This document shows, piece by piece, positions 7,181 through 58,258 of a DNA stretch of 63,495 bases. The notes under the pieces are model-generated. The model ran no database searches, was not told the DNA's origin, and saw only the letters and a program-made list of their open reading frames with translations. This stretch comes from Dehalococcoidia bacterium (GTDB taxonomy: Bacteria; Chloroflexota; Dehalococcoidia; Lucifugimonadales; UBA3495). The stretch is taken from assembly GCA_034428635.1 (NCBI GenBank), contig DAOUHR010000157.1, positions 1-63,495 on the forward strand, in the 5' to 3' direction. A program made the translations under genes and the position numbers. The stretch's first letter is position 1. Each line of letters begins with the position of its first letter.

Positions 7181-8125
7181 ATGCGATTCGGCTTTTACCT
7201 GCCCAATAGCGGACCAACGGCCAGACCTGGACCTTTGGCAGCCATCGCCAGGAAAGGCGACGAACTGGGTTTCCATTGCATGGTGGCCGGCGACCATATC
7301 CTTGTGCCTAAGGAAGTCAACTCGCCCTACCCATATACCGCCGACGGGCGGTTTCACGGGGGCGACGCGGTCGAGTACCTGGAACAACTGACTCTCTTGA
7401 CTTATCTCGCCGGCATTACCAGCAGCATTCGCCTGGTTCCCAGCGTGATGATTGTTCCCTATCGCAATCCCCTGCTGGCGGCCAAGATACTGGCCACGCT
7501 GGACGTTCTCTCCGGCGGTCGCCTGACCCTTGGCGTGGGCGTTGGCTGGATGGAAGAGGAGTTTGAGGCCCTGGATACTCCGCCCTTCGCGCAACGAGGT
7601 GCGGTGACTAACGAATACCTTCAGGCCTTCAAGGAACTGTGGACCAGCGACGAACCCTCATTCGACGGCCAGTATTGCCACTTTTCCAACATTCACTTCC
7701 TGCCCAAGCCTGTTCAGAAGCCCCACCCTCCCATCTGGGTTGGAGGCCAGAGCAGGCCTGCCATGCGCCGCGCCGCCGCTCTGGGTGACGGCTGGCACCC
7801 GGTCGGCGCCATTCCCGCAGCCCCCCTGGAACCCGAGGAACTGGCCCAGAACATTGCCCTGCTTCATCGCTATGCCGAAGGCAACGGCCGTGACCCTGCC
7901 GAGCTGGAAGTGTCTGTGAAGGCGCCCCTGTACGACGCAAATACAACGCCCCCCGGGGCGTCCCGTCGCCGGTTCGCCGGGGAACCCGAAGAAATGCTGC
8001 AGGATATACAAACCTATGAGGACGTGGGAGTCGGCTGCATTATTTTCGATATTCGGGGCAACGACTTGAACCATTCCCTTGAGCGGCTGGAATGGTTTGC
8101 TGAGGAAATAATGTCCCACTCGTAA
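7181..8125 (+). CDS. LLM class (luciferase-like) putative F420-dependent oxidoreductase
   Basis: Start reassigned to ATG 7181 (MRFGFYLP). DHILVP, YRNPLLAAKILATLDVLSGGRLTLGVGVGW, PKPVQKPHPPIWVGG. Confidence 0.9.
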   Translation: MRFGFYLPNSGPTARPGPLAAIARKGDELGFHCMVAGDHILVPKEVNSPYPYTADGRFHGGDAVEYLEQLTLLTYLAGITSSIRLVPSVMIVPYRNPLLAAKILATLDVLSGGRLTLGVGVGWMEEEFEALDTPPFAQRGAVTNEYLQAFKELWTSDEPSFDGQYCHFSNIHFLPKPVQKPHPPIWVGGQSRPAMRRAAALGDGWHPVGAIPAAPLEPEELAQNIALLHRYAEGNGRDPAELEVSVKAPLYDANTTPPGASRRRFAGEPEEMLQDIQTYEDVGVGCIIFDIRGNDLNHSLERLEWFAEEIMSHS

Positions 8126-8436
8126 GCCTTCTGTAATGCAAGGTAATGTGAAATAGACTGGAAGGCGCTTTGGCGGCCCGGCCATAACAGGTCGGCCGTG
8201 TTTCTTGCGAATCAACCAGAAGCCAAGGCCACCGTGGTTCTCTGATGTAGGATAGGTGCTGTCGGCGAGCCAGGGAAAATCGCCTTTATGCCAGGAGTCG
8301 GTAGTTTTCCTCACCGTTGTTCCTCACGGATTGAGGGTCAAATGCTACCCACATCATCACAATACGCTATAATACGGGTGCGATGTTATGGCAGTTCCTG
8401 CTGTCGCCGCCACTCAATTGAATTCAAGGAGCTTGT

Positions 8437-29936: not shown

Positions 29937-30014
29937 TGGCAGGAGCGGGAGGATTCGAACCCCCGACCACTGGTTTTGGAGACCAGCGCTCTGACCAGAC
30001 TGAGCTACGCTCCT
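29937..30014 (-). tRNA. tRNA-Trp (CCA)
   Basis: Reverse complement AGGAGCGTAGCTCAG...CTCCAAA...GGTTCGAATCC...CTCCTGCCA; cloverleaf, 3' CCA encoded. Confidence 0.95.
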
Positions 30015-30033
30015 GCGACCGGTGTTGTTGAAG

Positions 30034-30109
30034 TGGTACCCCTGGAGGGACTCGAACCCCCGACGCGCGACTTAGGACGCCGCCGCTCTATCCTCTGAGC
30101 TACAGGGGC
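30034..30109 (-). tRNA. tRNA-Arg (CCT)
   Basis: GCCCCTGTAGCTCAGAGGATAGAGC...GTCCTAA...GGTTCGAGTCC...ACCA; A20 present. Confidence 0.92.
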
Positions 30110-30113
30110 AGGT

Positions 30114-30189
30114 TGGTGGAGATAGGGGGGCTCGAACCCCCAACCTCGGCATTGCGAACGCCGCGCTCTCCCAGTTGAGCTATATCCCC
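30114..30189 (-). tRNA. tRNA-Ala (CGC)
   Basis: GGGGATATAGCTCA...TTCGCAA...TCTCCACCA; G3:U70 pair. Confidence 0.95.
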
Positions 30190-41195: not shown

Positions 41196-42074
41196 ATGAC
41201 TACTGCCGGAACCGGCAACTATACCTACGAACTTATCCAGGACTGGCCCAAGCTGCCCGAAGGAGAATCCCTGGGCATTGTAAGCGCCGTGGCCACCGAT
41301 TCTCAGGACCGCGTTTACGTCTTCCAGCGGCAGGACCCGCCGGTAATGGTCTTCGATGCCGACGGCAACTACCTGAACTGCTGGGGCATCGGCGCCATTG
41401 CCGACCCCCATGGCATCACCATCGTTGACGACATTGTTTACATAACCGACCGCTCCGACCAGGTGGCTGTGAAGTTCACCCTGGACGGCAAGCCCCTGCA
41501 GGTCATCGGCGAGCGGGGCGTTCATTCCGATACCGGCTGCGAAACTCCTGGCGAATTTGTGCCCCGGGCCGCTGGCCCCTTTAATTACCCCACCGAGATG
41601 GTGCCCAGCCCCTCCGGCGACATCTACATCTCCGACGGGTACCGCAACGCCCGTATGCACCGCTTCACCGCCGACGGCCAGTTGATTGCCTCCTGGGGTC
41701 AGCCTGGCAAAACCGAACCGGGCCACTTCCACCTGCCCCATAGCTGTCTCGTAGACCCCGACGGGAAGGTCTACGTTTGTGACCGGGCCAACCGCCGGGT
41801 GCAGATCTTCACTCCCGACGGCGAATTTATCACCCAGTGGACCAATGGCATGGGTGGCCCCGACGACATTTCCCGGGACAGCGACGGCATCATCTACATA
41901 GTCGAGCAGGAAGTGGACGGCGTTCCCCACGTCAGCATCTGGGAACCCGACGGCACCATGATCACCCGCTGGGCAATCCGCCACGCCCACGGCATGTGGG
42001 TGGACTCCAAGGGCGACATCTACCTGGGCCTGACCATCGACCACAGCGTGGACAAGTGGGTGCGACAGAGGTAA
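41196..42074 (+). CDS. NHL-repeat beta-propeller, peptidylamidoglycolate lyase (PAL)-like, paralogue 1
   Basis: VATDSQDRVYV, PHGI, SDGYRNAR, LPHS, DRANRR, AHG. Confidence 0.85.
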   Translation: MTTAGTGNYTYELIQDWPKLPEGESLGIVSAVATDSQDRVYVFQRQDPPVMVFDADGNYLNCWGIGAIADPHGITIVDDIVYITDRSDQVAVKFTLDGKPLQVIGERGVHSDTGCETPGEFVPRAAGPFNYPTEMVPSPSGDIYISDGYRNARMHRFTADGQLIASWGQPGKTEPGHFHLPHSCLVDPDGKVYVCDRANRRVQIFTPDGEFITQWTNGMGGPDDISRDSDGIIYIVEQEVDGVPHVSIWEPDGTMITRWAIRHAHGMWVDSKGDIYLGLTIDHSVDKWVRQR

Positions 42075-42090
42075 ACCAATCTCAATTGTG

Positions 42091-42116
42091 GTAGGGGCGG
42101 GTTTCAAACCCGCCCC
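42091..42116 (+). repeat. GTAG-type REP-like palindrome, family C
   Basis: GTA-GGGGCGGGTTT-C-AAACCCGCCCC; perfect 11-bp arms preceded by GTAG. Confidence 0.75.
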
Positions 42117-42142
42117 GTTAATTTTCCATATCAGGAGGTACC

Positions 42143-43021
42143 GTGATGACCCTGGTCAACACCGATAAGCACAACTACGACCTGGTGCAGGACTGGGCTC
42201 GCCTGCCCGAGGGCTGGTCCTTCGGCGTGGTAAGCTCGGTTGCCACCGATTCCCAGGACCGGGTGTATGTGTACCAGCGCAAGGACCCGCCCATTGTCGT
42301 CTTCGACAGCGAGGGCAACTACGTCGACTCCTGGGGTATCGGCGCCTTTAACCTGCCCCACGGTTTCTGCATCGTCGACGACGTCATCTACCTGACCGAC
42401 CGGGAAGACTCGGTGTGCCTCAAGTACACCCTCGACGGCAAGCCCCTGATGGTCATTGGCGACCGGGGAGTCCACTCCGACACGGGCTGCGAGGAGGCCG
42501 GGGCGCTGGTTCCCCGGGCGGCAGGGCCCTTCAATTTCCCCTCCGAAATGTACCCCTCGCCTTCCGGAGACCTTTACGTCTCCGACGGCTACCGAAACAG
42601 CCGGGTCCACCGCTTCAGCGGTGATGGCCGGCTCATCGCCTCCTGGGGGCAGCCGGGCAAGGGCGGGCCGGGCGAGTTCCACCTGCCCCACAGTTTGCTG
42701 ATTGACGAGGACGGCCTGATCTACGTCTGTGACCGCGAAAACAGTCGGGTGCAGGTCTTTACCGCCGAGGGCGAGTTCCTGCAGATGTGGACCGACATGA
42801 CCCGCCCCAACGATATCTCCCAGTGCACCGACGGCAGTTTCTGCATCGCCGAATCATCACTGGAAGGTTCCACGCCCGGCATCAGCATCCGGGACAAGGA
42901 CGGTCGCACCCAGGCCCGATGGGACTCCCGCTCCGCCCATGGCCTGTGGGTGGACAGCCAGGACAACGTCTACCTGGCCCTGACCGGCGCCATGAGCGTG
43001 GACAAGTACATTAAACGGTAA
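42143..43021 (+). CDS. NHL-repeat beta-propeller, PAL-like, paralogue 2
   Basis: Same motifs as paralogue 1 (PHGF, SDGYRNSR, LPHS, DRENSR, AHG); same length, 292 aa. Confidence 0.85.
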   Translation: MMTLVNTDKHNYDLVQDWARLPEGWSFGVVSSVATDSQDRVYVYQRKDPPIVVFDSEGNYVDSWGIGAFNLPHGFCIVDDVIYLTDREDSVCLKYTLDGKPLMVIGDRGVHSDTGCEEAGALVPRAAGPFNFPSEMYPSPSGDLYVSDGYRNSRVHRFSGDGRLIASWGQPGKGGPGEFHLPHSLLIDEDGLIYVCDRENSRVQVFTAEGEFLQMWTDMTRPNDISQCTDGSFCIAESSLEGSTPGISIRDKDGRTQARWDSRSAHGLWVDSQDNVYLALTGAMSVDKYIKR

Positions 43022-43142: not shown

Positions 43143-45197
43143 TTACCGCGGAAACGCCTCCCTCACCCCACCATCCACCGGAATCATGGCCCCGGTCGTC
43201 TTGGCCGAGCGGTTGGAGGCCAAAAACAGCACCGTCTCCGCCACGTCCTCGGCAAAGACCCGCGCCTTGAGCAGGTTGCGTTGCCGGTAGAAGTCTTCCA
43301 ATCCTTCCACAGTCACCCCATGTGCCGAGGCCCGTTCCTCCCGCAGTTCCTGGGACCAGAGCTGGGAACCCTGGAATACGGCGTCGGGGTTGACCACGTT
43401 GACCCGTATGCCGTGCTGCCCGTTCTCCAGGGCCAGCACCCGGGCCAGCTGCACCTCCGCCGCCTTGGCCACGCTGTACGCTCCGAACTCGGCCCCCGGC
43501 GCCGGTACGTTCTTGGTGCCGATGAACACCAGGCTGCCGCCCAGGCTCTGCTCCTTCATCAGCTTGACCGACTCGGCGGAAACCAGGAAATGGCCCGTGG
43601 TGTTGATGTCCAGGGAACGCTGCCAGTCCGCCAGGGAAAGGTCGTCAATGGCCCCCACCGGCGCGATGCCTGCGTTGGATACCAGGATGTCCAGCCCGCC
43701 GTAGGTCCGGCGCAGGGACTGGAAAACGTCAGCCACCTGGGCCGGGTCCGCCACGTTCATGGGGAAGGCTGCGGCCCGCTCCGGACCTGCCGTGCGGTTA
43801 ATGCCGGCGGCCACGTCCTGGGCCCCTTCGGCGTCCAGGTCGGTAACGATTACGTGCGCCCCTTCATTAGCCAGACGCTCTGCAATTACCTTTCCGATGC
43901 CACTGGCCGCGCCGGTAACCAGGGCCACCTGCCGGGCCAGTTCCTTCTCCGGCGGCGCCAGCGTCAGCTTGTAAAGCTCCAGGGGCCAGTACTCAGCGTC
44001 GTAAGCGTCCTTGGGCGTCAACGACGTATAATCGCTGACCGACTGGGCGGCCCGCAGCACGTTGATGGTGTGGTGGTAGATGTCATTGGTAATCAGGGAA
44101 GCCCTGGCGTCCCGGCCGGTGGTCCACATGCCCACTCCGGGCAGCAGTATAACCCGGGGATAGGGGTCCAGCATGGAGTCGTCGCCGGTGGTGTGCTGCT
44201 GGTACCAGGCTGCATACTCGTCGGCGTAGGCCGCCATACCCCGGCGCAGTTCCTCCCTTACCTCATCCACGTTCTCCGGGTCCGCTACATCCAGCCACAG
44301 GGGCTTTCGCTTGGTGTGAATCAGGTGGTCGGGAGTAGCCGGCCCGATGGCGCTAAGTCCCTGCCCTTCTTCGGACCCGGTGAACTCCAGCACATCCTCC
44401 GCGTCGTCAAACCGCAGCACCGACCGCCGCTGCTGGCTTACCAGGCCCCTAAGGGTGGGGGCCACGGCAGCAGCAACTTCCCGCCGCCGGTCGGGGGCCA
44501 GGGGATTCCGTTGCCACCCGCCGAACACTCGGCCGTCGCCTGACGCGGAGAACTCCTCTGCCTTGGTAACCAGGTCAATGTGCCGGTCGTAGGCCTCTTT
44601 AGCGTCGCTGCCCCAGGTGAACAGCCCGTGGTTTACCAGAACCACACCGTCCAGGTTGGGCGCTTCCTTCACTGCCAGCCCCACCAGCCTGGATAGCTGG
44701 AACCCGGGGCGCAGGTACTCAACGATGCCAATGTTGTCGCCGTAGACTTTCTTCAGGATGTCGTCCGCATCCCGGTTGTTGGTCAAACCCACTACCGCGT
44801 CGGCGTGGGAGTGGGCCACGCTGTGAAAGGGCAGGAAGGCATGAAGCAGGGTTTCGATGGAAGGCCGGGGCGAGTTGGGGTCCAGCACGCACCGGTCCAG
44901 GTAGTCCACCATGTCCTCGTCGGACATCTGCTCCCGTTCGAAGACGGGCAACACCTTTTCCAGTTCCAGCCGTGGGAACTGCCACCGCTCCATCGACTTC
45001 AGGTCCGACCCTGAGCCCTTGATACGCATAACCTGAACGTCCCGCCCCAGGAAGTCCTGCTCCGAAATCTTGATGGACGTATTGCCCCCGCCCCAAACCA
45101 CCAGGGAAGGGTCCGCCCCAATCAGGCGGCTCATGTATACCAGCTTGTCCAGTTCGTCCAGGGCCTGCGCTTCGCTATCCGACCAAAGGTTTTTCAT
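43143..45197 (-). CDS. Bifunctional class II aldolase / short-chain dehydrogenase (rhamnulose-1-phosphate aldolase/SDR, RhaEW/YuxG-like)
   Basis: GGGNTSIK, IKGSGSDL, PSIETLLH, HSHAD, ATPDH, EYWPLELYKL, TGAASGIG, AYSVAKAA, PVDGG. Confidence 0.92.
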   Translation of the reverse strand: MKNLWSDSEAQALDELDKLVYMSRLIGADPSLVVWGGGNTSIKISEQDFLGRDVQVMRIKGSGSDLKSMERWQFPRLELEKVLPVFEREQMSDEDMVDYLDRCVLDPNSPRPSIETLLHAFLPFHSVAHSHADAVVGLTNNRDADDILKKVYGDNIGIVEYLRPGFQLSRLVGLAVKEAPNLDGVVLVNHGLFTWGSDAKEAYDRHIDLVTKAEEFSASGDGRVFGGWQRNPLAPDRRREVAAAVAPTLRGLVSQQRRSVLRFDDAEDVLEFTGSEEGQGLSAIGPATPDHLIHTKRKPLWLDVADPENVDEVREELRRGMAAYADEYAAWYQQHTTGDDSMLDPYPRVILLPGVGMWTTGRDARASLITNDIYHHTINVLRAAQSVSDYTSLTPKDAYDAEYWPLELYKLTLAPPEKELARQVALVTGAASGIGKVIAERLANEGAHVIVTDLDAEGAQDVAAGINRTAGPERAAAFPMNVADPAQVADVFQSLRRTYGGLDILVSNAGIAPVGAIDDLSLADWQRSLDINTTGHFLVSAESVKLMKEQSLGGSLVFIGTKNVPAPGAEFGAYSVAKAAEVQLARVLALENGQHGIRVNVVNPDAVFQGSQLWSQELREERASAHGVTVEGLEDFYRQRNLLKARVFAEDVAETVLFLASNRSAKTTGAMIPVDGGVREAFPR

Positions 45198-46195: not shown

Positions 46196-47203
46196 CTACC
46201 CCGTCGTCTCAATCCCCAGCAGCTTTTCCAGGTTCTTCCACAGGATCATGTCCTTCTCTTCCTGGGTGATGCTTTCCAGGCCTTGCAGCCAGCCCGTGGG
46301 CGACGGGTCCCAGCCCACGAAGGGGTAGTCGCTGCCCAGCACCACCCGCTCAATGCCCACCTGGTCGATCAGGAAGCGAAGGGACCGCTCGCTCATTACC
46401 ACTATGTCGTAATAGAGGCGGCTCTGGTAGTAGCTGGGTGGGCGGCTGATGTTGACGCGGGCCTCGGACCGTACCTGCCAGCCCCGGTCCATCCTACCCA
46501 TGCCGAAGCAGGCGGGGCCGCCGCCGTGGGCCACGCACACCTTCAAATCCGGGCAATTCTCCATAACCCCGCCGTAAATCAGTGCGGCCACCAGCAGGGT
46601 GTCCTCCACCGGCACGCCCACCGAGTTGTTCAGACCGTACTTGGCGGTGCGTTCCAGCATCAGGTTGTGCTGGGGCTGGGGATGGTAAAACAGCGTCGCG
46701 CCCATGGACTCGGCGGCCTTGAAGAAGGGCAGGAACTCCGGTTCATCCCAGGTCTTCCCGTTTACCACCGTGTCCAGTTCCGCTCCCTTCAAGCCCAGTG
46801 TGTTGACGGCCCGGTCCAGTTCCGCGATGGCGGCGTCCACATCCTGCATGGGCAGGGTGGCCATTCCCGCGAACCGCGTGGGAGCCTCTTTGGCAAATGC
46901 GGCAATGTCGTCGTTGACTTCCCGGGCCTGGGCAATGCCGTCGGCGGAGGAGAGATGGTAACCGAATACGGGCGTATGGATGGCGACCACCTGGACTTCC
47001 GTGCCCAGTTGGTCCATGTCCGCCACCCGCTCTTCGGGCGTGAACCTGCACTTGGGGTGCACGTTAACGATTTTGCCTTCCCTGACGAAGATATTGCGCT
47101 GTTCTGCGTCAGTGTACTTCATGCCGTACCATTCCTGGCCGGCCGCCATGGTCTTCAACATTGTCGGCGTAAATGTGTGGGCGTGGATGTCTATGCTGCG
47201 CAT
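46196..47203 (-). CDS. Amidohydrolase family protein (ACMSD-like), paralogue 2
   Basis: IDIHAH, ATLPMQD, FYHP, AHGGG, GSDYPF. Confidence 0.9.
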   Translation of the reverse strand: MRSIDIHAHTFTPTMLKTMAAGQEWYGMKYTDAEQRNIFVREGKIVNVHPKCRFTPEERVADMDQLGTEVQVVAIHTPVFGYHLSSADGIAQAREVNDDIAAFAKEAPTRFAGMATLPMQDVDAAIAELDRAVNTLGLKGAELDTVVNGKTWDEPEFLPFFKAAESMGATLFYHPQPQHNLMLERTAKYGLNNSVGVPVEDTLLVAALIYGGVMENCPDLKVCVAHGGGPACFGMGRMDRGWQVRSEARVNISRPPSYYQSRLYYDIVVMSERSLRFLIDQVGIERVVLGSDYPFVGWDPSPTGWLQGLESITQEEKDMILWKNLEKLLGIETTG

Positions 47204-47266
47204 CCGGTAACCTCCAGCGGGTTAAGGGTGGGGAACAAGCCTGAGAAGGACGGTGGACTTGCCTCC

Positions 47267-48262
47267 CTACAGGCCCAGCAGGTTCTCCAGGTTTTTCCAC
47301 AGGATCAGTTCCTTCTCTTCCTGGGTGATTTTGTCCAGGCTAAGCACCCAGGAAACGGGCCAGTCAAATTCCATGTCGTAAGGCCAGTCGGTGCCAAACA
47401 GCACCCGGTCTGCGCCCACCGTGTCGATCAGGAATCGCAGGGACTCTTCCGTGTATACGATGCAATCGTAGTGGAAGCGGCGCAGGTATTCGCTGGGCGG
47501 CATGGGCGGCTTGGTGGGGGATTCGGGGGCCCCCTGCCAGCCCCGGTCAATGCGCCCGATGTTGTAGCAGGTGTACCCGCCCCCGTGGGACAGGCAGATT
47601 TTCAAATCGGGGCAGGCGTCCATCACCCCGCCCATTACCAGCGAACAGAAGGTAATAGTGCGGTCGGCTAGGTTGCCGATGGAGTTGGGCAGGTGAAACT
47701 TGTCTGTCCGGAAGTCCACCAGTGTGCCGTCGCCCTGGTGAAACAGGATTAGCGCCCCCATCTGCTCTGCAGCCTTCCAGAAGGTCAGAAACTCCGGTTC
47801 GTCCAGCAGCTTGCCGTTGACCTTGTCGTCAATCATGGCCCCCTTGAAACCCATGGTGGTCATGATGCGTTCAAGCTCGGCGACGGCGGCGTTTACGTCC
47901 TGCATCGGCAGGGTGCCCAGGCCGGCAAACCGGTCGGGCCAGGCCGTCACCATCTCTGCAATTTCGTCATTGGAGTCCCGCGAAGAGGCGACGGCCAGTG
48001 AGGCGTCCAGCCCATAGTTGTAGAAACCGGAATACGGAGAAAGGACGTGCATATCCACGCCCAGCGAGTCCATGTCCGCCATGCGCTCTTCCGGCGTCCA
48101 GCGAGCCTTGGGAGGGAGGCCGCCCCTCCGGTCGCCCACGATGGCGATCTGTCGGCCCCGGGCGTCCTGCTCGCGGCGCAGCGAGTGCCAGTCGCCGCCA
48201 TTCTCCGTGGCTCTCCAGAAGCGCTGGGGTGTCAGGTGGGCGTGAATGTCGATGCTTCGCAT
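47267..48262 (-). CDS. Amidohydrolase family protein (ACMSD-like), paralogue 1
   Basis: IDIHAH, GTLPMQD, LFHQ, SHGGG, GTDWPY. Confidence 0.9.
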   Translation of the reverse strand: MRSIDIHAHLTPQRFWRATENGGDWHSLRREQDARGRQIAIVGDRRGGLPPKARWTPEERMADMDSLGVDMHVLSPYSGFYNYGLDASLAVASSRDSNDEIAEMVTAWPDRFAGLGTLPMQDVNAAVAELERIMTTMGFKGAMIDDKVNGKLLDEPEFLTFWKAAEQMGALILFHQGDGTLVDFRTDKFHLPNSIGNLADRTITFCSLVMGGVMDACPDLKICLSHGGGYTCYNIGRIDRGWQGAPESPTKPPMPPSEYLRRFHYDCIVYTEESLRFLIDTVGADRVLFGTDWPYDMEFDWPVSWVLSLDKITQEEKELILWKNLENLLGL

Positions 48263-48303
48263 TGCTTTTTACTCCCACGAAATTCGGTTTCATGCAGTTA
48301 AAT

Positions 48304-48497
48304 GGGCCCGCGAATGCTGCCATTACGGCCCCCTACAGTGAACGGGCCAAACGTAGCATACGGGTAAGGGCCTGTCAATTTGGCCGCAGCTCTCTTGGCT
48401 TGGCGTATTGGGTGGTCTTATCATCCCGCTATGTAGGGGCAGACCTGTGTGTCTGCCCAGCCCCGTGCGATATAGGCCTATACCCGTGTGCCTGCCC
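48304..48497. repeat. Cluster of GTAG-type REP-like units, family C
   Basis: GTAGGGGCAGACCTGTGTGTCTGCCC at 48433-48458, a degenerate copy at 48473-48497, and a minus-strand GTAGGGGGCC... unit at 48304-48336. Confidence 0.6.
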
Positions 48498-48574
48498 AGT
48501 TCGCAACCCAATTGCCCTATCCCCCGGCATAACGTATATTTACCCAGGAACCAGTCAGGCAAGGAGGTCCCAGG

Positions 48575-49870
48575 ATGCGTATTCTGATGATTGCCACCAA
48601 CCGGCATAACCGCCTGGTTAGCCGGATGAACGCCCAGCCCCTGCCCATCGGCATGGCCTACGTGGCCGGCCACCTGGACCCCGACCGGCACCAGCTGAAG
48701 GTGTTGGACCTGATGTTCTCCGACGACTACCTGGCCGACGTGGAAGCGGCGGTCCACGAGTTCCAGCCCGACTTGGTTGGCCTGTCCCTGCGCAACCTGA
48801 ACAACCACAGCTACCTGGATCCCCAGTGGGCCCTGCCGATAACGAAGAACGTAATCGACAAGATTCGCGAGTTCTCCACCGCTCCCATCGTCTGCGGCGG
48901 TCCGGCCTTCAGCCTGCTGCCCGAAGAGTGCTTTGCCTACCTGGAGCCTGACCTGGGCCTGGCCGGCGACGCGGGGGAAACTTTCTCCGAACTGGCCGGC
49001 CGCATCGAAATCGGCGAGCCTTCCTACCTGGACCTGCCCGGCCTGGTCTACCGAGACGAGGCGGGCATCCACTTCAACGGCATGCGCTGCCGGTCCGAAT
49101 TCTCCATGCCCCCCCGGTTCGACGAACTGGACATGGAAAAGTACCGCCTGGCCGGCTTCGGTGTCGGCATCGTTACCAAGCTCGGCGATTTCAACTACCC
49201 CACGTCGCCAAACTCTGAACCGGCGCAGCGTAGCGCCTGGCGGGTCATACGCCCCATTGAAGAGGTGGTGGCAGAAGTAAAGGACATGGAAGCCCGTTTC
49301 AACCTGCGCAAAGTCCACTTTATCGATAACGGCTTCAACATGCCCCTGGCCCACGCCAAGGAACTGTGCCAGGCCCTGATCGACGCCGACATCGGTGTCC
49401 ACTGGACCACCGGCCTTGCCCCCTTCAGTTGCGATGCCGAATTGGTGGATTTGATGAAGCGGGCCGGCTGCGTCCTGGTCATGATGGGCAATATGCGCGG
49501 CGACAGCCACGACGGCACTACCCTTGGCGAACGCATGGAACCCATGCTGGAGACCTGCCGAATCTGCGAGGAGGGCGGCCTTAACTACACCATCGCCCAG
49601 CGCTTCGGTGACCCCGGCGAAACGAGGGAGTCGGTGGAAGAAAAGCTGGCCTTCCTGCGCAACATCAAGCCTTCCATGGCCAATCTGCGCGTGGGCGTCA
49701 GCATCATGCCCGGCACCCGGGAGGCCCAGCTTGCTGTGGAAGAGGGCCTCGTCGCCGACGAAAGTGAACTCATCAAGCCCACCTTCTACCTGGACCCACA
49801 GGTCAAGGACTGGGTGGTCGACTACCTGAAGGAAGCCGCCGCCGACCAGCCCCGGTGGAATCTGTTGTAG
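48575..49870 (+). CDS. Cobalamin-binding domain + radical-SAM-fold protein lacking the CxxxCxxC motif
   Basis: PLPIGMAYVAG, DLVGLSLRN, GGPAFS, FIDNGFNMP, FGDPGET, IMPGT. The expected TKRGCxxxCxxC reads TKLGDFNYPTS. Confidence 0.8.
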   Translation: MRILMIATNRHNRLVSRMNAQPLPIGMAYVAGHLDPDRHQLKVLDLMFSDDYLADVEAAVHEFQPDLVGLSLRNLNNHSYLDPQWALPITKNVIDKIREFSTAPIVCGGPAFSLLPEECFAYLEPDLGLAGDAGETFSELAGRIEIGEPSYLDLPGLVYRDEAGIHFNGMRCRSEFSMPPRFDELDMEKYRLAGFGVGIVTKLGDFNYPTSPNSEPAQRSAWRVIRPIEEVVAEVKDMEARFNLRKVHFIDNGFNMPLAHAKELCQALIDADIGVHWTTGLAPFSCDAELVDLMKRAGCVLVMMGNMRGDSHDGTTLGERMEPMLETCRICEEGGLNYTIAQRFGDPGETRESVEEKLAFLRNIKPSMANLRVGVSIMPGTREAQLAVEEGLVADESELIKPTFYLDPQVKDWVVDYLKEAAADQPRWNLL

Positions 49871-50077
49871 AAGTCAATTGTTCATTCCCTGCTGGTGAGA
49901 ATGGGTAGAATGTTATGGACTCTAGTCGCATCTGCAGGTAATTTCGGCCTTGAATAAGGTCCACGTTGTTGCACATGGACCGCCGCACCTAGGGGCTAAT
50001 TCCTTTGAGTCCCTCCAGGTTCCGGGCCGAAGCGCGAACCTGATCACCGGCATGCCGGGGTGCTCTATGTGGATTGC

Positions 50078-50332
50078 ATGAATCGAAACGCTGCCCTGCG
50101 GCAACGGATCTTGAGCGGCCGGTCTGACGCCAATACCCGATTCGACGAGCTTCGCCCGTTATTGAGTCGTTGAGGGTTCACTGAGCGGATTAGTGCAAGT
50201 CACCACATCTACAGAAAGATTGGCGTCCGTGAGATGATTAACTTGCAGCGTGAGGGGAGCCACGCCAAACCTTACCAGGTACGGCAGGTTAGGAATATCA
50301 TACTGGCCTACGGAATTGGAGACGCTGAATAA
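50078..50332 (+). pseudogene. hicA: HicA toxin pseudogene (in-frame TGA at codon 32)
   Basis: Manual translation MNRNAALRQRILSGRSDANTRFDELRPLLSR*GFTERISASHHIYRKIGVREMINLQREGSHAKPYQVRQVRNII...; TGA at 50171-50173; TAATG overlap with hicB. Confidence 0.85.
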
Positions 50333-50544
50333 TGCACAAGTACGAAATTATCATCTATTGGAGCGATGAAGACGGCGTATTTGTTGCTGAAGTCCCTGAA
50401 CTGCCAGGGTGCTTGGCCCACGGGAACAGCCAGGAGGAAGCTCGGCAGAACATCAACCAGGCCGCAGAGTTGTGGCTGAAGACGGCCAGTGAATTCGGCG
50501 ACGCCATTCCAGAACCAAAAGGCAGAAGGCTTATGCTGGCCTAG
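50332..50544 (+). CDS. hicB: Short HicB family antitoxin
   Basis: YEIIIYWSDEDGVFVAEVPELPGCLAHGNSQEEA...GDAIPEPKG. Confidence 0.92.
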   Translation: MHKYEIIIYWSDEDGVFVAEVPELPGCLAHGNSQEEARQNINQAAELWLKTASEFGDAIPEPKGRRLMLA

Positions 50545-51461
50545 TGGAAATTACTTCCCTGCCCGACCAATACACGGAGGAAACCTTGGAACCAACCAGC
50601 AAGTACGTCCAGGCCAACGGCATAACCCTGCATGGCCTGACCTGGGGCGACCCGAATAACCCACTCTTGATTATGACCCATGGCATTGGCCTTTGCGCCA
50701 TGGTGTGGCGGCCCCTGGCCGAAGACCTGGCCCGCGATTACCATGTCTTTTCCCTGGACCTGCGGGGGCACGGCGACACCGACAAGCCCGGCGGCTACAC
50801 CTTTGACAACATGGCCGAGGACGTGGTTGCCCTGGTGCGTGCCCTTGACCCGCCCCAACCCCCTTACGGAATCGGCCACTCCGCCGGCGGCATGACGATA
50901 ATGATCGCCAACTCCAAGGCCCCCGGAACCATGGGCCCAACCGTGCTGGTGGACACCCGTGTTGGTCCGGCCCTGGAGGTTTACAACCCGGAAGAGCGCG
51001 AGGAGCGGATGAACCGCACCCGCAACAAGCGGGCCATCTGGGAGACTCGCGAGATCATGTACGATGCCTACCGCAACCGCCGGGTTTTCAGTACCTGGAC
51101 CGACGACGCGGTGAGGGATTATATCTATGGCGGCACCAGGCTTCTGGACGACGGCCGGGCCGAGTTGAAATGCCCCACCGACGTGGAAGCCATCTACTAC
51201 GAAGCCCGCCACTCTTTGAATCCCACCCCATACCTGAAAGCGCTGTCCGGTGAATACCTGCTTCTCCTTGGCTACACCGGCAACTACCCGGACGAGGCCG
51301 CCCGTAACAGCGACGAGGTCAAGTACTTCCTAAACGAGGTCAAGGGCGCCAGGATGGAAACCCTGCCCAAAGGCTCCCACTTCGTAGCCATGGAGGACCC
51401 TGACCTGGTCCTTTCATCCGCCCGCCGGTACCTGGACGGCCACCGCCTGGGGGGCGATTAG
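50544..51461 (+). CDS. Alpha/beta hydrolase
   Basis: MTHGIG, DLRGHGDTDK, GHSAGG, GSHFVAME. Confidence 0.88.
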   Translation: MEITSLPDQYTEETLEPTSKYVQANGITLHGLTWGDPNNPLLIMTHGIGLCAMVWRPLAEDLARDYHVFSLDLRGHGDTDKPGGYTFDNMAEDVVALVRALDPPQPPYGIGHSAGGMTIMIANSKAPGTMGPTVLVDTRVGPALEVYNPEEREERMNRTRNKRAIWETREIMYDAYRNRRVFSTWTDDAVRDYIYGGTRLLDDGRAELKCPTDVEAIYYEARHSLNPTPYLKALSGEYLLLLGYTGNYPDEAARNSDEVKYFLNEVKGARMETLPKGSHFVAMEDPDLVLSSARRYLDGHRLGGD

Positions 51462-54350: not shown

Positions 54351-55985
54351 ATGGTAGAAGCGAAGAGTCACACAGCCACAAATGGCAGTAGTCCGCTGGG
54401 CAATGTAGAGCAGTTCGATGCTATAGTAATCGGCGCCGGCGTCACCGGTTTGTACCAGACGTACTGCCTCCGGAACATCGGCATGTCCGTCCGTGTCTTT
54501 GAGGATGGAGACGGCGTCGGCGGCACCTGGTACTGGAACCGTTACCCGGGCGCCCGGTTCGACTCGGAAAGTTACACCTACGGTTACTCCTTCTCCAAAG
54601 AATTGCTGCAGGAGTGGGACTGGAAGGAACTCTACTCCGGCCAGCCCGAAAACGAACGCTACCTGAATTACGTGGCCGACAAGTTCGACCTGAGACGCTA
54701 CATCCGCTTCAATTCCCGGGTGGCCGACTGCACCTTCGAGGAGGACCGAAACACCTGGCTGGTAACCATCGCCGACGGCCACCGGGCCCGCGCCCCCTTC
54801 CTGGTAACGGCGGTGGGCCTGCTTTCCGCACACTACATCCCTGACTTCGAGGGCCTCGAGACATTCCAGGGCCAATGGTGCCACCCTGGTCGCTGGCCGA
54901 AGGAAGGAATGGACCTGGCCGGCAAGCGAGTTGGCGTCGTAGGCACCGGCGCCACGGCGGTCCAGCTGATTACCGAAATAGCCAAAGAGGTGGGTCACCT
55001 GACCGTGTTCCAGCGCACCCCCAACTTCTGCGCGCCCCTGCGCAACCGGCCCATCACCGACGAAATGATGCAGGAAATCAGGGACAACTATCCCGAGATT
55101 TTCCGTCGCTGCAACGAAACCGCCGGGTCCTTCATGCACCTGTTCGACCCTCGTTCCGCCCTGGATGTTTCGCCTGAAGAAAGGCAGGAACAGTACGAGC
55201 GGCTGTGGCAGGAACCCGGCTTTTCCAAGTGGCTGTCCAATTTCTACGACGTAATGCTCCCTGGCGAGGCCAACGAGGACTACGCCGAATTCGTCCGCAG
55301 CAAGATCCGCGAGCGCGTCCACGACCCGGAAGTGGCAGAAATGCTGGTGCCCAAGGACCACATGTTCGGCTCCAAGCGCCTGCCCTGCGAGAGCGGCTAC
55401 TACGAGGTCTACAACCGGGACAACGTTAAGCTGGTCGACGTCAGGAAGGCGCCCATCCAGCGTATAACCCCCACCGGCCTTCAAACTGCCGATGCCGAGT
55501 ACGAACTTGACGTCATCATCTTCGCCACTGGCTACGACGCGGTTACCGGGTCTCTCAACCGAATCAATGTCCGGGGAATCGGCGGACAGCTCTTGACGGA
55601 CAAGTTTGCCAACGGGCCCCGAACTTACCTGGGCATCCAGAGCAGCGGTTTCCCCAACATGTTCACCATCAACTCCGCATCCGTCGGCAACTTCGTCCGG
55701 GCTGCCGAACCCCTGGTGGAATGGGTTACCGAGTGCATCCGCTACGTCCGCGAGAACGAATACGTCCGCATTTCGCCAACCGTGGAGGCCGAGGACGAGT
55801 GGGTCAACCACGTTAACGAGGAAGGCTCCAAGATTCTCCGCTCCCAGGCCAACTCCTGGTACGTGGGGGCCAACATCCCCGGCAAGGCCCGCGCCCTGCT
55901 CACCAGCCCCGACACCGCCCCCATAATGCGGGCCAAGCGCACCGATGTTGCCGCCAATGGGTACGAGGGTTTCCTGCTGGAGTAA
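54351..55985 (+). CDS. Type I Baeyer-Villiger monooxygenase (cyclohexanone monooxygenase family)
   Basis: GAGVTG, GGTWYWNRYPGARFD, fingerprint FQGQWCHPGRWP, GTGATA, FQRTP, SKRLP, ATGYD. Confidence 0.95.
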   Translation: MVEAKSHTATNGSSPLGNVEQFDAIVIGAGVTGLYQTYCLRNIGMSVRVFEDGDGVGGTWYWNRYPGARFDSESYTYGYSFSKELLQEWDWKELYSGQPENERYLNYVADKFDLRRYIRFNSRVADCTFEEDRNTWLVTIADGHRARAPFLVTAVGLLSAHYIPDFEGLETFQGQWCHPGRWPKEGMDLAGKRVGVVGTGATAVQLITEIAKEVGHLTVFQRTPNFCAPLRNRPITDEMMQEIRDNYPEIFRRCNETAGSFMHLFDPRSALDVSPEERQEQYERLWQEPGFSKWLSNFYDVMLPGEANEDYAEFVRSKIRERVHDPEVAEMLVPKDHMFGSKRLPCESGYYEVYNRDNVKLVDVRKAPIQRITPTGLQTADAEYELDVIIFATGYDAVTGSLNRINVRGIGGQLLTDKFANGPRTYLGIQSSGFPNMFTINSASVGNFVRAAEPLVEWVTECIRYVRENEYVRISPTVEAEDEWVNHVNEEGSKILRSQANSWYVGANIPGKARALLTSPDTAPIMRAKRTDVAANGYEGFLLE

Positions 55986-56745: not shown

Positions 56746-56817
56746 TGGGCCCGGCTGGGTTCGAACCAGCGACCTACCGGTTATGAGCCGGTTGCTCTTC
56801 CACTGAGCTACAGGCCC
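56746..56817 (-). tRNA. tRNA-Ile2 (CAT, lysidine type) most likely; elongator Met not excluded
   Basis: GGGCCTGTAGCTCAGTGGAAGAGCAACCGG-CTCATAA-CCGGT...GGGCCCA; A38 loop and acceptor stem fit Ile2; CCA not encoded. Confidence 0.85.
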
Positions 56818-56902: not shown

Positions 56903-58258
56903 CTACACCAGCCCCAACTTCTGCAGGTAGTCCGGGTCGTAGTCCGCCAGCAACCCCAACTCCACCGCCCGGGAAGGCTCCATTTGGGGCGAAGCCTCGC
57001 CGCTGGTGGGCGTAGTCGTGATGATGGTCTCATCCAGCAGGCCCTGGTAGGTGGCTTCGTCCAGCGCCAGCAACTCCTTCAACATCTCCTCGTTATTCTG
57101 CCCGAACCTGGGGCCGGGGCCCTTTATGGACATGGGAGTGTTGCTGTACTTGTAAGGACGCCCCATCAGGAACCTGCTGCCCACGCCTCGTTCTTCCGGA
57201 AAATCCACCCGCTCCAGGAAGCCCCGGTGCTTGTAGTGCGGATCGTAATGGATATCCCGGCCCGTCAACACCGGGCCAGAGGGAATACCCGCTCCCTGCA
57301 ACCGGTGCATCAACTCGTACTTGTCCGTGGTTGCGGTCCACTTCCCAATGATCTCGTCCGCCTCGTCGTGATTCCGGCGGCGGGACAGAATATCGGCAAA
57401 ACGTGCGTCCGAAGCCAGTTCCTCCTTCCCCATCAACTGGCACAAGGCCTGCCATTCCTCGTCGCTTCCCACCGACAAGGTAATCCACTGGTCCTTGCCC
57501 AGCGCCGGATAACATCCCTGCGGCGCCCGGTAGGGGTGGCGGTTGCCCATCCTGCCGCCCTCCCTGCCGTTAATGTTGGCGTCCATCAGGTACTCGGACA
57601 GGAACATCACCCCGGCCTGGTACATGGCAATGTCAATCCACTGCCCCCTGCCCGTCCGGTTGCGGTAGCGCAGAGCCGCGCCCAGGGCGAAAACCGCGCT
57701 CCAAGTGGACAGAAAGTCCACAAAGGACGCCCCTGCCTTGGCCGGTTCGCCGTCCAGGTACCCCGTCACCCAGCAGTGGCCGTGGGTCCCTTCCTGCGTG
57801 GTAGCCTGGGCTGGGTAGCCCGAGTAGGGCCCTTCGCCGTGCCCGTAGCCGGTATTGGAGACCAGGATAATGTCCGGCTTGATCTTCCGCAGATTGGGAT
57901 AGTCCAGGTTCCAGCGGCGCATCACCCGCGGCGTGAAGTTCTCCATCACCACGTCGCTGACCGCTACCATTTCCCGGAACAGGTCCCGTCCCCGCTCGTC
58001 CCCCATGTCCAGCACCAGCGACTTCTTGCCCCGGTTCAATAGGTTGTATGTGGAGGGCTTGTTCCACCACTCTTCACCGGCCTGGTTTTCCGGAAAAGAC
58101 CCGGCATAGCCGCCGGTACGCGTAACATCCGGTCGGCCCGGCCCCTCAATCTTGATGACCTCGGCCCCCAAGTCTGCCAGGTGGCCGCCGGCATAGGGCA
58201 ACGCAAAAACGTACGTGGAGTCCAGGATGCGGATCCCTTCCAGGGGAAGTCTGGGCAT
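56903..58258 (-). CDS. Family III CoA-transferase, catalytic Asp present
   Basis: PLEGIRILD, LGAEVIKIE, NRGKKSLVLD, GASFVDF, GPRFGQNN. Confidence 0.92.
   Translation of the reverse strand: MPRLPLEGIRILDSTYVFALPYAGGHLADLGAEVIKIEGPGRPDVTRTGGYAGSFPENQAGEEWWNKPSTYNLLNRGKKSLVLDMGDERGRDLFREMVAVSDVVMENFTPRVMRRWNLDYPNLRKIKPDIILVSNTGYGHGEGPYSGYPAQATTQEGTHGHCWVTGYLDGEPAKAGASFVDFLSTWSAVFALGAALRYRNRTGRGQWIDIAMYQAGVMFLSEYLMDANINGREGGRMGNRHPYRAPQGCYPALGKDQWITLSVGSDEEWQALCQLMGKEELASDARFADILSRRRNHDEADEIIGKWTATTDKYELMHRLQGAGIPSGPVLTGRDIHYDPHYKHRGFLERVDFPEERGVGSRFLMGRPYKYSNTPMSIKGPGPRFGQNNEEMLKELLALDEATYQGLLDETIITTTPTSGEASPQMEPSRAVELGLLADYDPDYLQKLGLV

What the first reader, a model, noticed from the sequence alone, without database searches (positions are those of the whole stretch)
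48575..49870. Intact cobalamin-binding radical-SAM-fold protein that has lost the whole CxxxCxxC motif
Seen: the B12-binding domain and barrel motifs (FIDNGFNMP, FGDPGET, IMPGT) are intact. The 24-residue stretch that normally reads GCxxxCxxC...R..R.P is GDFNYPTSPNSEPAQRSAWRVIRP (49184-49255), of normal length, with no Cys and no frameshift. The G-x-E-S SAM-contact region is also changed (GNMRGDS). The gene has typical high-GC codon usage and no stops. Established: the three Cys bind the [4Fe-4S] cluster needed for SAM cleavage. Inference: a retained pseudo-enzyme, such as a non-radical cobalamin methyltransferase, a B12 sensor or chaperone, or the partner subunit of an active paralogue.
Basis: partly seen in the sequence, partly recalled or inferred. 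Interest (0 to 1): 0.75.

Follow-up and report, generated by a model that had tools for sequence, protein, structure and literature searches.

The report
Cluster-less cobalamin-binding radical-SAM relative

Summary
ORF 48575-49870 (+, 431 aa) has a clear B12-binding domain and a class-B radical-SAM fold (AlphaFold2 pLDDT 88.7; best PDB match TsrM, TM 0.81). It has no Cys where CX3CX2C should be, and no CX3CX2C anywhere.

The loss is clade-wide. 124 of 125 family loci in reference genomes have no Cys in that loop, and so do representatives down to 36% identity. The clade is monophyletic (NJ bootstrap 91/100). dN/dS against orthologues is 0.05-0.07. The nearest Cys-bearing relatives are uncharacterised TIGR04072-like enzymes, mostly from anaerobes.

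The beta4 SAM-contact motif and a GEGE motif are also lost. The cobalamin pocket is the most conserved part, and Arg73 (equivalent to TsrM Arg69 under the cobalt) is invariant in 125/125.

The gene usually stands alone with its own conserved promoter-like site and Shine-Dalgarno sequence. In one lineage (5 species) it is the first gene of a cobalamin-riboswitch-controlled btuFCD-like operon.

Best reading: a functional, cluster-free cobalamin protein that does non-radical cobalt chemistry or corrinoid processing. Function was not tested. I found no description of this clade in the searchable literature.

The parts
48575..49870 (+). Coding sequence of the cluster-less B12-binding radical-SAM-fold protein (431 aa), called T in this report
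   Evidence: ORF and translation. Pfam and NCBIfam matches. AlphaFold2 model pLDDT 88.7. Foldseek top hit TsrM 6wte, TMq 0.81. dN/dS 0.05-0.07.
48512..48540 (+). Promoter-like site TTGCCC-17 nt-TATATT, conserved among close orthologous loci
   Evidence: Consensus scan. The block is conserved in L019, L005, L051, L007 and L012. Function is inferred, not shown.
48561..48567 (+). Shine-Dalgarno sequence AAGGAGG, 7 nt before the ATG
   Evidence: Sequence. Invariant in all six aligned loci.
48641..48994 (+). B12-binding Rossmann domain (aa 23-140 by Pfam); the most conserved part of the protein
   Evidence: PF02310 at 53.1 bits. D45, R73, G108 and G109 are invariant in 125/125 loci. Lowest entropy in the segment aa 71-88.
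48791..48793 (+). Codon of Arg73 in the loop after strand 3; aligns with TsrM Arg69, the residue that blocks the lower face of the cobalt
   Evidence: HMMER alignment to 6wte. Role of Arg69 from PMC8992657 and PMC13331322. R in 125/125 family loci.
49184..49255 (+). Former [4Fe-4S] loop (aa 204-227) with no Cys. The flanks (TKLG-x-F-x-YP and WRVIRP) are conserved and the centre is variable.
   Evidence: Model pLDDT below 50 for aa 208-219. Entropy 1.66 against a barrel mean of 0.88.
49319..49345 (+). Strand 2 motif FIDNGFNMP. D251 and F254 are kept. G253 occupies the position of TsrM Glu273, which ligates the cluster's unique Fe.
   Evidence: Alignment to 6wte. Role of Glu273 from PMC8992657. 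Conservation.
49487..49528 (+). Degenerate strand-4 loop (aa 305-318, GNMRGDSHDGTTLG) replacing the canonical G-x-(E/D)-S-x-S...L...K-x-F SAM-contact motif
   Evidence: Group comparison. pLDDT below 50 for aa 307-313. Entropy 1.45.
49604..49624 (+). Retained strand-5 motif FGDPGET (the G-x-I-x-G-x-x-E-type motif of the radical SAM core)
   Evidence: G345 in 125/125, P347 in 122/125, and E349 as E or D in 125/125. Shared with the canonical relatives.
50544..51461 (+). Alpha/beta-hydrolase gene. It is the same-strand downstream neighbour in most loci of this subclade only (context, not shown to be functionally linked).
   Evidence: Pfam Abhydrolase_6 and Abhydrolase_1. Neighbour cluster c5, normally 50-150 nt downstream.

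Best explanation
The gene encodes a functional, cluster-free descendant of the cobalamin-dependent (class B) radical SAM enzymes.

Shown:
- It keeps the Rossmann B12 domain and the partial TIM barrel.
- It has lost all three Cys of the [4Fe-4S] site, the strand-4 SAM-contact motif and a GEGE motif.
- This state is ancestral to a large, monophyletic clade under strong purifying selection, found mainly in SAR202-type Dehalococcoidia.

Inferred:
- It cannot reductively cleave SAM.
- It still binds a corrinoid base-off/His-off over the invariant Arg73, as TsrM does over Arg69. That arrangement favours cob(I)alamin and heterolytic Co-C chemistry.
- It therefore most likely works by non-radical cobalt chemistry on the upper face of the bound corrinoid: transfer of a methyl or alkyl group to or from cobalt.
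- The substrate is either a small metabolite or the corrinoid's own upper ligand (processing after uptake). The second option would fit the one lineage where the gene leads a B12-repressed corrinoid-import operon.
- Loss of the oxygen-labile cluster fits the move of this lineage into aerobic marine bacteria.
For: - Architecture: B12-binding domain above threshold, Radical_SAM below threshold and lacking the Cys region.
- Fold: TsrM (TMq 0.81), then AprD4, OxsB, MgmA and CysS.
- Clade-wide loss: 120/120 close representatives; representatives at 63, 48, 44, 36 and 36% identity; 124/125 loci in reference genomes. Monophyly 91/100.
- Selection: dN/dS 0.05-0.07 at dS 0.2-0.8. Conserved promoter-like site and Shine-Dalgarno sequence.
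- The cobalamin pocket is the most constrained region, and R73, D45, G108 and G109 are invariant. R73 aligns with TsrM R69, whose role in blocking the lower ligand and stabilising cob(I)alamin is described in PMC8992657 and PMC13331322.
- The former Fe-S and SAM loops are the most variable and least confidently modelled segments.
- A cobalamin riboswitch (about 113 bits) plus a terminator lies upstream, and btuF/btuC/ATPase-like genes lie immediately downstream (gap -7 to +31 nt), in L043, L044, L046, L047 and L057.
- Two or three divergent paralogues per genome are seen in several genomes, as expected for proteins with diversified ligands.
Against: - No biochemical data exist. Cobalamin binding is inferred from conservation and homology only.
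- The riboswitch/btuFCD link is confined to five closely related species (proteins 91-95% identical to each other, 59% to the query). It is absent from the window and from the other roughly 175 family loci screened, so it may not transfer to this copy.
- An OFF riboswitch in front of a B12-using enzyme is unusual. It fits a B12-handling role better than a metabolic enzyme.
- No methyl donor or acceptor can be named, and the canonical SAM site is degenerate.
- Gene neighbourhoods differ between subclades and give no consistent pathway.
Confidence: 0.45

Rival explanations
1. A non-catalytic corrinoid carrier: a cytoplasmic chaperone, store or sink that receives cobalamin from the importer and hands it to B12-dependent enzymes. 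The barrel serves only as a lid.
For: The cobalamin pocket is the most conserved region, while the two loops that once formed the catalytic site are variable and poorly ordered. In one lineage the gene is first in a B12-repressed operon and is translationally coupled to btuF. No conserved enzymatic partner or pathway was found.
Against: The barrel residues (R223, R226, D251, F254, G345-T350, P379) are nearly as conserved as the B12 domain. That is more than a passive lid would seem to need. Several genomes keep 2-3 divergent paralogues. The riboswitch link is limited to one lineage.
Confidence: 0.25
2. An adenosylcobalamin-dependent radical enzyme. The B12 domain plus barrel now resembles a mutase or eliminase, and AdoCbl replaces SAM and the cluster as the radical source.
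For: A Rossmann B12 domain fused to a (beta/alpha) barrel is the general layout of AdoCbl enzymes (established knowledge). The adenine-side strand-5 motif is retained. One paralogue subfamily lies near nrdR and a class II-type ribonucleotide reductase.
Against: There is no DxHxxG His-loop. An Arg under the cobalt favours four-coordinate cob(I)alamin and heterolysis rather than homolysis (PMC13331322). Foldseek returns only radical SAM folds as strong full-length matches. The reductase proximity is a synteny block in one subfamily, with an opposite-strand gene in between.
Confidence: 0.08
3. A non-catalytic partner or regulatory subunit of an active, Cys-bearing radical SAM paralogue.
For: Dead paralogues that pair with live enzymes are known in other families (general knowledge). 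The fold is fully retained.
Against: No Cys-bearing paralogue lies in the 63-kb window or in the flanks of any family locus held at that point (tblastn). The closest Cys-bearing relatives found in reference genomes are at most 37% identical to the closest Cys-bearing relative (P0125) and sit in other, mostly anaerobic phyla. The gene usually stands alone. Whole genomes could not be searched exhaustively.
Confidence: 0.05
4. Still a radical SAM enzyme that ligates a [4Fe-4S] cluster through a different set of Cys residues.
For: Cys119, Cys265, Cys299 and Cys331 are 75-100% conserved in the clade, and Cys119 is clade-specific.
Against: C265, C299 and C331 are also frequent (81, 70 and 43%) in relatives that still have CX3CX2C, so they are inherited core residues and not replacements. 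C328 of the TCRIC pair is only 55-62% conserved. C119 lies in a helix of the B12 domain, far in sequence from the barrel top. The strand-4 SAM motif is also lost. Distances in the model could not be measured.
Confidence: 0.04
5. A decaying pseudogene or an annotation artefact.
For: None beyond the missing motif.
Against: Intact ORF. dN/dS 0.05-0.07. Hundreds of full-length orthologues. Conserved promoter-like site and Shine-Dalgarno sequence. Confident fold prediction.
Confidence: 0.01

Closest known systems
TsrM (tryptophan 2-C-methyltransferase; PDB 6WTE/6WTF), the non-radical member of the cobalamin-dependent radical SAM enzymes
   Same: Best structural match (TMq 0.81) and best PDB sequence match (E 1.3e-20). 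Same two-domain layout. The Arg in the loop after strand 3 (TsrM R69 = query R73) is invariant in the family. TsrM already does polar rather than radical chemistry (PMC8992657).
   Different: TsrM keeps CX3CX2C and a [4Fe-4S] cluster that is functionally required. The query has no Cys in that loop. TsrM Glu273, which ligates the unique Fe, is Gly253 here. TsrM has an extra C-terminal domain (about 570 aa against 431 aa). Sequence identity is only 21-23%. TIGR04428 scores 84 bits against a cut-off of 500.
TIGR04072 (rSAM_ladder_B12, 'lipid biosynthesis B12-binding/radical SAM protein'), an uncharacterised class B radical SAM family
   Same: Best NCBIfam match for the query (183.5 bits) and for the other Cys-less subfamilies (145-195 bits). 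The nearest Cys-bearing sister proteins score 290-352 bits. Same length and the same B12-domain motifs, including R73.
   Different: All are below the 360-bit cut-off. The sisters have RGC-x3-C-x-YC, GEGE and the strand-4 G-x-(E/D)-S motif, and the query clade has lost all three. The sisters occur mostly in anaerobes, whereas the query clade is in aerobic marine Dehalococcoidia and Entotheonella.
BzaD (TIGR04385, B12 lower-ligand biosynthesis radical SAM methyltransferase)
   Same: Second-best NCBIfam match (122.5 bits, full-length alignment). It is a class B enzyme tied to cobamide metabolism and, like one lineage of the query family, belongs to a B12-related gene set.
   Different: Far below the 450-bit cut-off. 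BzaD is a canonical cluster-containing enzyme. No bza genes were seen near any family member.
Cobalamin-trafficking and processing proteins such as CblC/MMACHC (resemblance in possible role only)
   Same: These are cytoplasmic proteins that hold cobalamin base-off and remove or exchange the upper ligand after uptake (established knowledge). That would fit a gene leading a riboswitch-controlled btuFCD-like operon.
   Different: No sequence or fold relationship was detected. The comparison is functional analogy only and was not tested.

Membership tests
Radical SAM superfamily | Three-Cys motif (CX3CX2C or a variant) that ligates the SAM-cleaving [4Fe-4S] cluster | tested here: not met
   No Cys in aa 204-227 and no CX3CX2C-like spacing anywhere. 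The same holds in 124/125 family loci.
Radical SAM superfamily | Pfam PF04055 match at or above the gathering score | tested here: not met
   26.0 bits against 29.5. The match starts at profile position 26.
Radical SAM superfamily | Partial (beta/alpha) TIM-barrel core fold | tested here: met
   AlphaFold2 model pLDDT 88.7. Foldseek probability 1.00 to TsrM, AprD4, OxsB, MgmA, CysS, MiaB, RimO and HydE.
Radical SAM superfamily | SAM-contact motifs on strands 2, 4 and 5 | tested here: inconclusive
   The strand-4 motif G-x-(E/D)-S is lost. The strand-2 D-x-x-F and the strand-5 G-x-P-G-E-T are kept. SAM binding itself was not tested.
Cobalamin-dependent (class B) radical SAM enzymes | N-terminal Rossmann-type B12-binding domain | tested here: met
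   PF02310 at 53.1 bits against a cut-off of 32.1. Its motifs are invariant across the family.
Cobalamin-dependent (class B) radical SAM enzymes | B12 domain combined with a cluster-bearing radical SAM domain | tested here: not met
   The cluster ligands are absent.
Cobalamin-dependent (class B) radical SAM enzymes | Actual binding of cobalamin | not testable with these tools
   Inferred only from conservation of the pocket and of R73.
TsrM-type non-radical methylase | Arg in the loop after strand 3 occupying the lower axial space of the cobalt | tested here: met
   R73 aligns with TsrM R69 and is present in 125/125 loci. This rests on sequence alignment and was not verified in 3D.
TsrM-type non-radical methylase | Glu ligating the unique Fe of a retained [4Fe-4S] cluster, and the TIGR04428 score cut-off | tested here: not met
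   Gly253 is at the Glu273 position. TIGR04428 scores 84.3 bits against 500.
TIGR04072 (rSAM_ladder_B12) | Whole-protein score of at least 360 bits | tested here: not met
   183.5 bits.
MetH-type base-off/His-on cobalamin proteins | DxHxxG His-loop after strand 1 | tested here: not met
   No D.H..G anywhere in the protein. The loop after strand 1 instead carries a clade-specific insertion with a conserved Arg13.
Cobalamin-riboswitch regulon (corrinoid uptake operon) | RF00174 aptamer upstream and co-transcription with btuFCD-type genes | tested here: not met
   Not met for the window copy: nothing at the gathering score in the window, nothing at E<=10 in 48150-48700, and no btuF or btuC nearby. 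Met only for the homologues in L043, L044, L046, L047 and L057.

The most novel reading that the evidence does not exclude
A large, previously undescribed clade of naturally cluster-free, oxygen-compatible cobalamin enzymes has evolved from class B radical SAM methylases in abundant aerobic marine bacteria (SAR202). Its members either carry out TsrM-like polar methyl or alkyl transfer with no Fe-S cluster at all, or act as a bacterial counterpart of the CblC-type corrinoid-processing step that follows B12 import. Either way they would show that the radical SAM scaffold can be converted into a purely cobalamin-based catalyst.
Probability: 0.35. Interest if true: 0.8.

Novelty: new variant of a known kind. 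Interest (0 to 1): 0.62.

Why it matters
Cobalamin-dependent radical SAM enzymes are defined by two cofactors. For TsrM, the best-studied non-radical member, the reviews note that the [4Fe-4S] cluster has no clear mechanistic role yet is still required (PMC12931638). A natural, strongly conserved clade that keeps the cobalamin half and the TsrM-like Arg but has discarded the cluster offers a direct test of what this scaffold can do with cobalamin alone.

The family is also ecologically large. At least 556 stretches in species-representative genomes encode relatives, almost all in SAR202-type Dehalococcoidia. This group is abundant in the deep ocean and in sponges, where B12 supply shapes communities. 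If the protein processes or chaperones imported corrinoids, it would fill a gap in bacterial B12 trafficking. If it is an oxygen-tolerant cobalamin transferase, it would be of interest for biocatalysis. It also warns annotators: 'B12-binding radical SAM protein' is the wrong name for these genes.

Tried and rejected
- Conserved operon partner: neighbours were clustered in 60 and then 136 family loci. No neighbour is universal and the contexts are subclade-specific.
  - The window's subclade has Amidohydro_2 x2 upstream on the opposite strand and an alpha/beta hydrolase downstream.
  - Other subclades have CoA-transferase x2 with a thiolase-like gene plus DUF35, or DUF1385, or Uma2/NrdR, or an unknown gene plus Hexapep.
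- Riboswitch in the window copy: none at the gathering score or at E<=10. A total of 34 loci were scanned with Rfam, and all roughly 180 family loci were screened with a B12-box pattern and with tblastn for btuF and btuC. Only the same five loci were positive. A first Rfam call failed because it exceeded the size limit.
- Deeper relatives of the riboswitch lineage: the metagenome scan returned full-length relatives only at 40-58% identity (short partial matches reached 75%), and none had a riboswitch.
- Cys-bearing paralogue as partner: not found in the window or in locus flanks. A reference-genome scan with the closest Cys-bearing relative found only distant hits in other phyla.
- Alternative Cys ligands, including TCRIC: judged unlikely from conservation patterns. 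This could not be tested in 3D because model coordinates are not exposed.
- Literature: six full-text searches and five papers read found no description of a cluster-less class B branch.
Full report
**Observation.** The window has an intact ORF at 48575-49870 on the + strand (431 aa, ATG start). Pfam finds a B12-binding domain above threshold (PF02310, 53.1 bits, aa 23-140). It finds only a sub-threshold Radical_SAM match (26.0 against 29.5 bits) that starts at profile position 26, after the Cys motif. The protein has eight Cys, none in aa 204-227, and no CX3CX2C-like spacing anywhere. The best NCBIfam matches are TIGR04072 (183.5 bits, cut-off 360), BzaD (122.5) and the TsrM family (84.3), all far below their cut-offs.

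**Is it one odd sequence or a family?** A search of the 90%-clustered protein collection returned 996 hits. The best 120 are about 431 aa long and 64-93% identical, and none has a Cys in the loop. The flanks are conserved (TKLG-x-F-x-YP and WRVIRP) and the centre is variable.

- The 50%-representative search showed that the Cys-less state extends to representatives at 63, 48, 44, 36 and 36% identity. The next relatives carry a canonical RGC-x3-C-x-YC.
- With a second set of distant members, the 44 sampled Cys-less proteins form one clade in a neighbour-joining tree, with 91 of 100 bootstraps.
- In reference genomes, 124 of 125 family loci have no Cys in the loop and one has a single Cys.
- Nei-Gojobori dN/dS between the window gene and 23 orthologues is 0.05-0.07 where dS is unsaturated (0.2-0.8).
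- The roughly 70 nt upstream are conserved among close orthologues and contain a promoter-like TTGCCC-17-TATATT and a perfect AAGGAGG.

This is an old, single loss in a gene that has stayed under strong purifying selection.

**Fold and what else changed.** An AlphaFold2 model built on a 75-sequence alignment has mean pLDDT 88.7 and pTM 0.88. The only segments below 50 are aa 208-219 (the former cluster loop) and aa 307-313. Foldseek against the PDB puts TsrM first (TMq 0.81), followed by AprD4, OxsB, MgmA and CysS, so the fold is that of a class B radical SAM enzyme.

I compared weighted residue profiles of 44 Cys-less and 145 Cys-bearing relatives. The clade has lost:
- the three Cys, together with the neighbouring R203, G204, Y211 and G219;
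- the GEGE motif (aa 131-134, now GDAG);
- the strand-4 motif G-x-(E/D)-S-x-S...L...K-x-F (now a variable Gly-rich loop).

It keeps the B12-domain motifs, R223 and R226, D251 and F254, and G-x-P-G-E-T on strand 5.

Within the query's own subfamily, the lowest entropy is in aa 71-88 (S-L-R-N-L-x-N-H-S-Y-L-D-P-Q-W-A-L-P) and around G108-G109. The two former active-site loops have about twice the mean entropy.

R73 aligns with TsrM Arg69 and G253 aligns with TsrM Glu273. Arg69 lies in the loop after strand 3, blocks the lower face of the cobalt and is thought to stabilise cob(I)alamin. Glu273 ligates the cluster's unique iron (PMC8992657, PMC13331322, PMC12931638). R73 is present in 125 of 125 loci. 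The loop after strand 1, the counterpart of the MetH His-loop, has a clade-specific 3-4 residue insertion with a conserved Arg13 and no DxHxxG.

**Alternative cluster ligands.** C265 and C299 (100% in the sampled clade alignment; 100% and 94% across the 125 reference-genome loci) and C331 (75-90%) are also common in the Cys-bearing relatives (81, 70 and 43%), so they are inherited core residues. C328 of the TCRIC pair is only 55-62% conserved. C119 is clade-specific (about 95%) but lies in a helix of the B12 domain. A replacement SAM-cleaving cluster is therefore unlikely. I could not measure distances because the model's coordinates are not exposed.

**Who has it.** Scans of species-representative genomes found 57 loci with the query alone. 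The 80 loci listed are Dehalococcoidia or Chloroflexota MAGs (several labelled SAR202, several with sponge-type bin names) apart from two Candidatus Entotheonella genomes. The closest reference locus is 97% identical (L019, a Dehalococcoidia MAG). Some source names in the protein collection mention Marinimicrobia and Nitrospinae. Several genomes hold two or three divergent copies, for example L041, L052 and L059 in one assembly. The nearest Cys-bearing relatives score 290-352 bits on TIGR04072. In reference genomes they occur at 37% identity or less, in Victivallales, Deltaproteobacteria, Omnitrophota, Planctomycetota and other mostly anaerobic groups. The link between cluster loss and an aerobic lifestyle is my inference from these names.

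**Genomic context.** No neighbour is conserved across the family.

- In the window's subclade the gene lies between two opposite-strand Amidohydro_2 genes and a same-strand alpha/beta hydrolase.
- In the window, and in L019, a HicA/HicB remnant is inserted between the gene and the hydrolase.
- Other subclades sit next to CoA-transferases and a thiolase-like gene plus DUF35, DUF1385, an unknown gene plus Hexapep, or Uma2 genes and nrdR with a class II-type reductase.
- The exception is a group of five loci (L043, L044, L046, L047, L057). A full-length cobalamin riboswitch (RF00174, 112-113.5 bits) lies about 115 nt upstream, followed by a stem-loop with a T-run. The gene is then followed at -7 to +31 nt by a Peripla_BP_2 protein, a FecCD permease and an ABC ATPase. 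For the permease and the ATPase the best NCBIfam matches are BtuC and 'corrinoid ABC transporter ATPase'; BtuF is the second-best match of the binding protein.
- These five proteins are 91-95% identical to each other and 59% identical to the query, so this counts as one lineage-level event.
- No riboswitch, btuF or btuC was found in the window or in any other of about 180 family loci. The metagenome scan found no closer relatives of that lineage.

**Interpretation.** Without the Cys triad and the strand-4 motif, the protein cannot bind the SAM-cleaving cluster in the known way, so it fails the defining test of a radical SAM enzyme while keeping the fold. The pattern of constraint (cobalamin pocket most conserved, former Fe-S and SAM loops least) says that corrinoid binding is the core of its function. 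The invariant TsrM-like Arg under the cobalt points to four-coordinate, cob(I)-favouring, heterolytic chemistry rather than Co-C homolysis.

I therefore favour a non-radical cobalamin protein that moves a methyl or alkyl group to or from cobalt (confidence 0.45). The substrate is either a metabolite or the corrinoid's own upper ligand. The riboswitch operon favours the corrinoid-processing version for that lineage. The multiple paralogues and catabolic neighbourhoods favour a metabolic enzyme elsewhere.

The rivals are:
- a purely non-catalytic carrier (0.25);
- an AdoCbl-dependent radical enzyme (0.08; disfavoured by the Arg and the missing His-loop);
- a partner subunit of a live paralogue (0.05; no such paralogue was found);
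- a cluster on alternative Cys (0.04);
- decay (0.01).

**Novelty.** The protein collection and NCBI call these proteins 'cobalamin-dependent protein' or 'B12-binding domain-containing radical SAM protein'. Six full-text searches and recent reviews of the class describe no cluster-less branch. I rate it a new variant of a known kind. It is interesting to specialists because it is a natural experiment on what the class B scaffold does without its cluster, and because it is so common in SAR202. All functional statements beyond 'conserved, cluster-less, class-B fold' are inference.

Noticed in passing
window 50060-50544: A HicA-like toxin ORF is interrupted by an in-frame stop at 50171-50173 and is followed by an intact HicB antitoxin gene (50332-50544, PF15919/PF21748). 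The pair is inserted between the B12-binding gene and the alpha/beta hydrolase, widening the gap to 674 nt against 50-150 nt in most relatives. L019 has the same gap.
   Followed up: partly
window 48338-48385: A conserved intergenic block of about 45 nt (GAACGGGCCAAACGTAGCATACGGGTAAGGGCCTGTCAATTTGGC) lies between the divergent Amidohydro_2 gene and the B12-binding gene. It is shared with L005, L051 and L012 but not with L019 or L007. It could be an operator or the promoter of the divergent gene.
   Followed up: no
window 46196-48262 and 41196-43021: There are two tandem Amidohydro_2 paralogues (335 and 331 aa, minus strand) and two tandem 292-aa paralogues that look like NHL-repeat proteins. 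Nearby, judged by eye from the translations and not confirmed by Pfam, are a flavin monooxygenase-like gene (54351-55985), a family III CoA-transferase-like gene (56903-58258) and an aldolase/short-chain dehydrogenase fusion (43143-45197). The gene content is typical of SAR202 catabolic islands.
   Followed up: partly
window 29940-30189 and 56746-56817: Three clustered tRNA genes on the minus strand, plus one further tRNA gene (Rfam RF00005).
   Followed up: no
L061 7001-14875: One Cys-less paralogue subfamily sits between Uma2-family genes and about 0.8 kb from nrdR, followed by a 1207-aa ribonucleotide reductase. The reductase carries an intein with a LAGLIDADG domain and a TSCPD domain (class II-like, so probably B12-dependent). 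NrdR is a neighbour in about 9 loci of that subfamily.
   Followed up: partly
L057 7633-8431: The btuF-like gene of this riboswitch operon matches in two overlapping tblastn pieces (7633-8094 and 8084-8431). This suggests a frameshift or an assembly error in that genome.
   Followed up: no
L064 1-978 and L062 6098-6934: In the P0124/P0275 subfamily, a 280-325-aa protein with no Pfam or NCBIfam match lies 40-70 nt upstream on the same strand, and a Hexapep-repeat protein lies downstream. This may be a subfamily-specific operon.
   Followed up: partly
L191 6001-7293: This is the only family member of 125 with a Cys in the former cluster loop (LTKLGDFWCPAAGS...). It is a single Cys, not a motif.
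   Followed up: no
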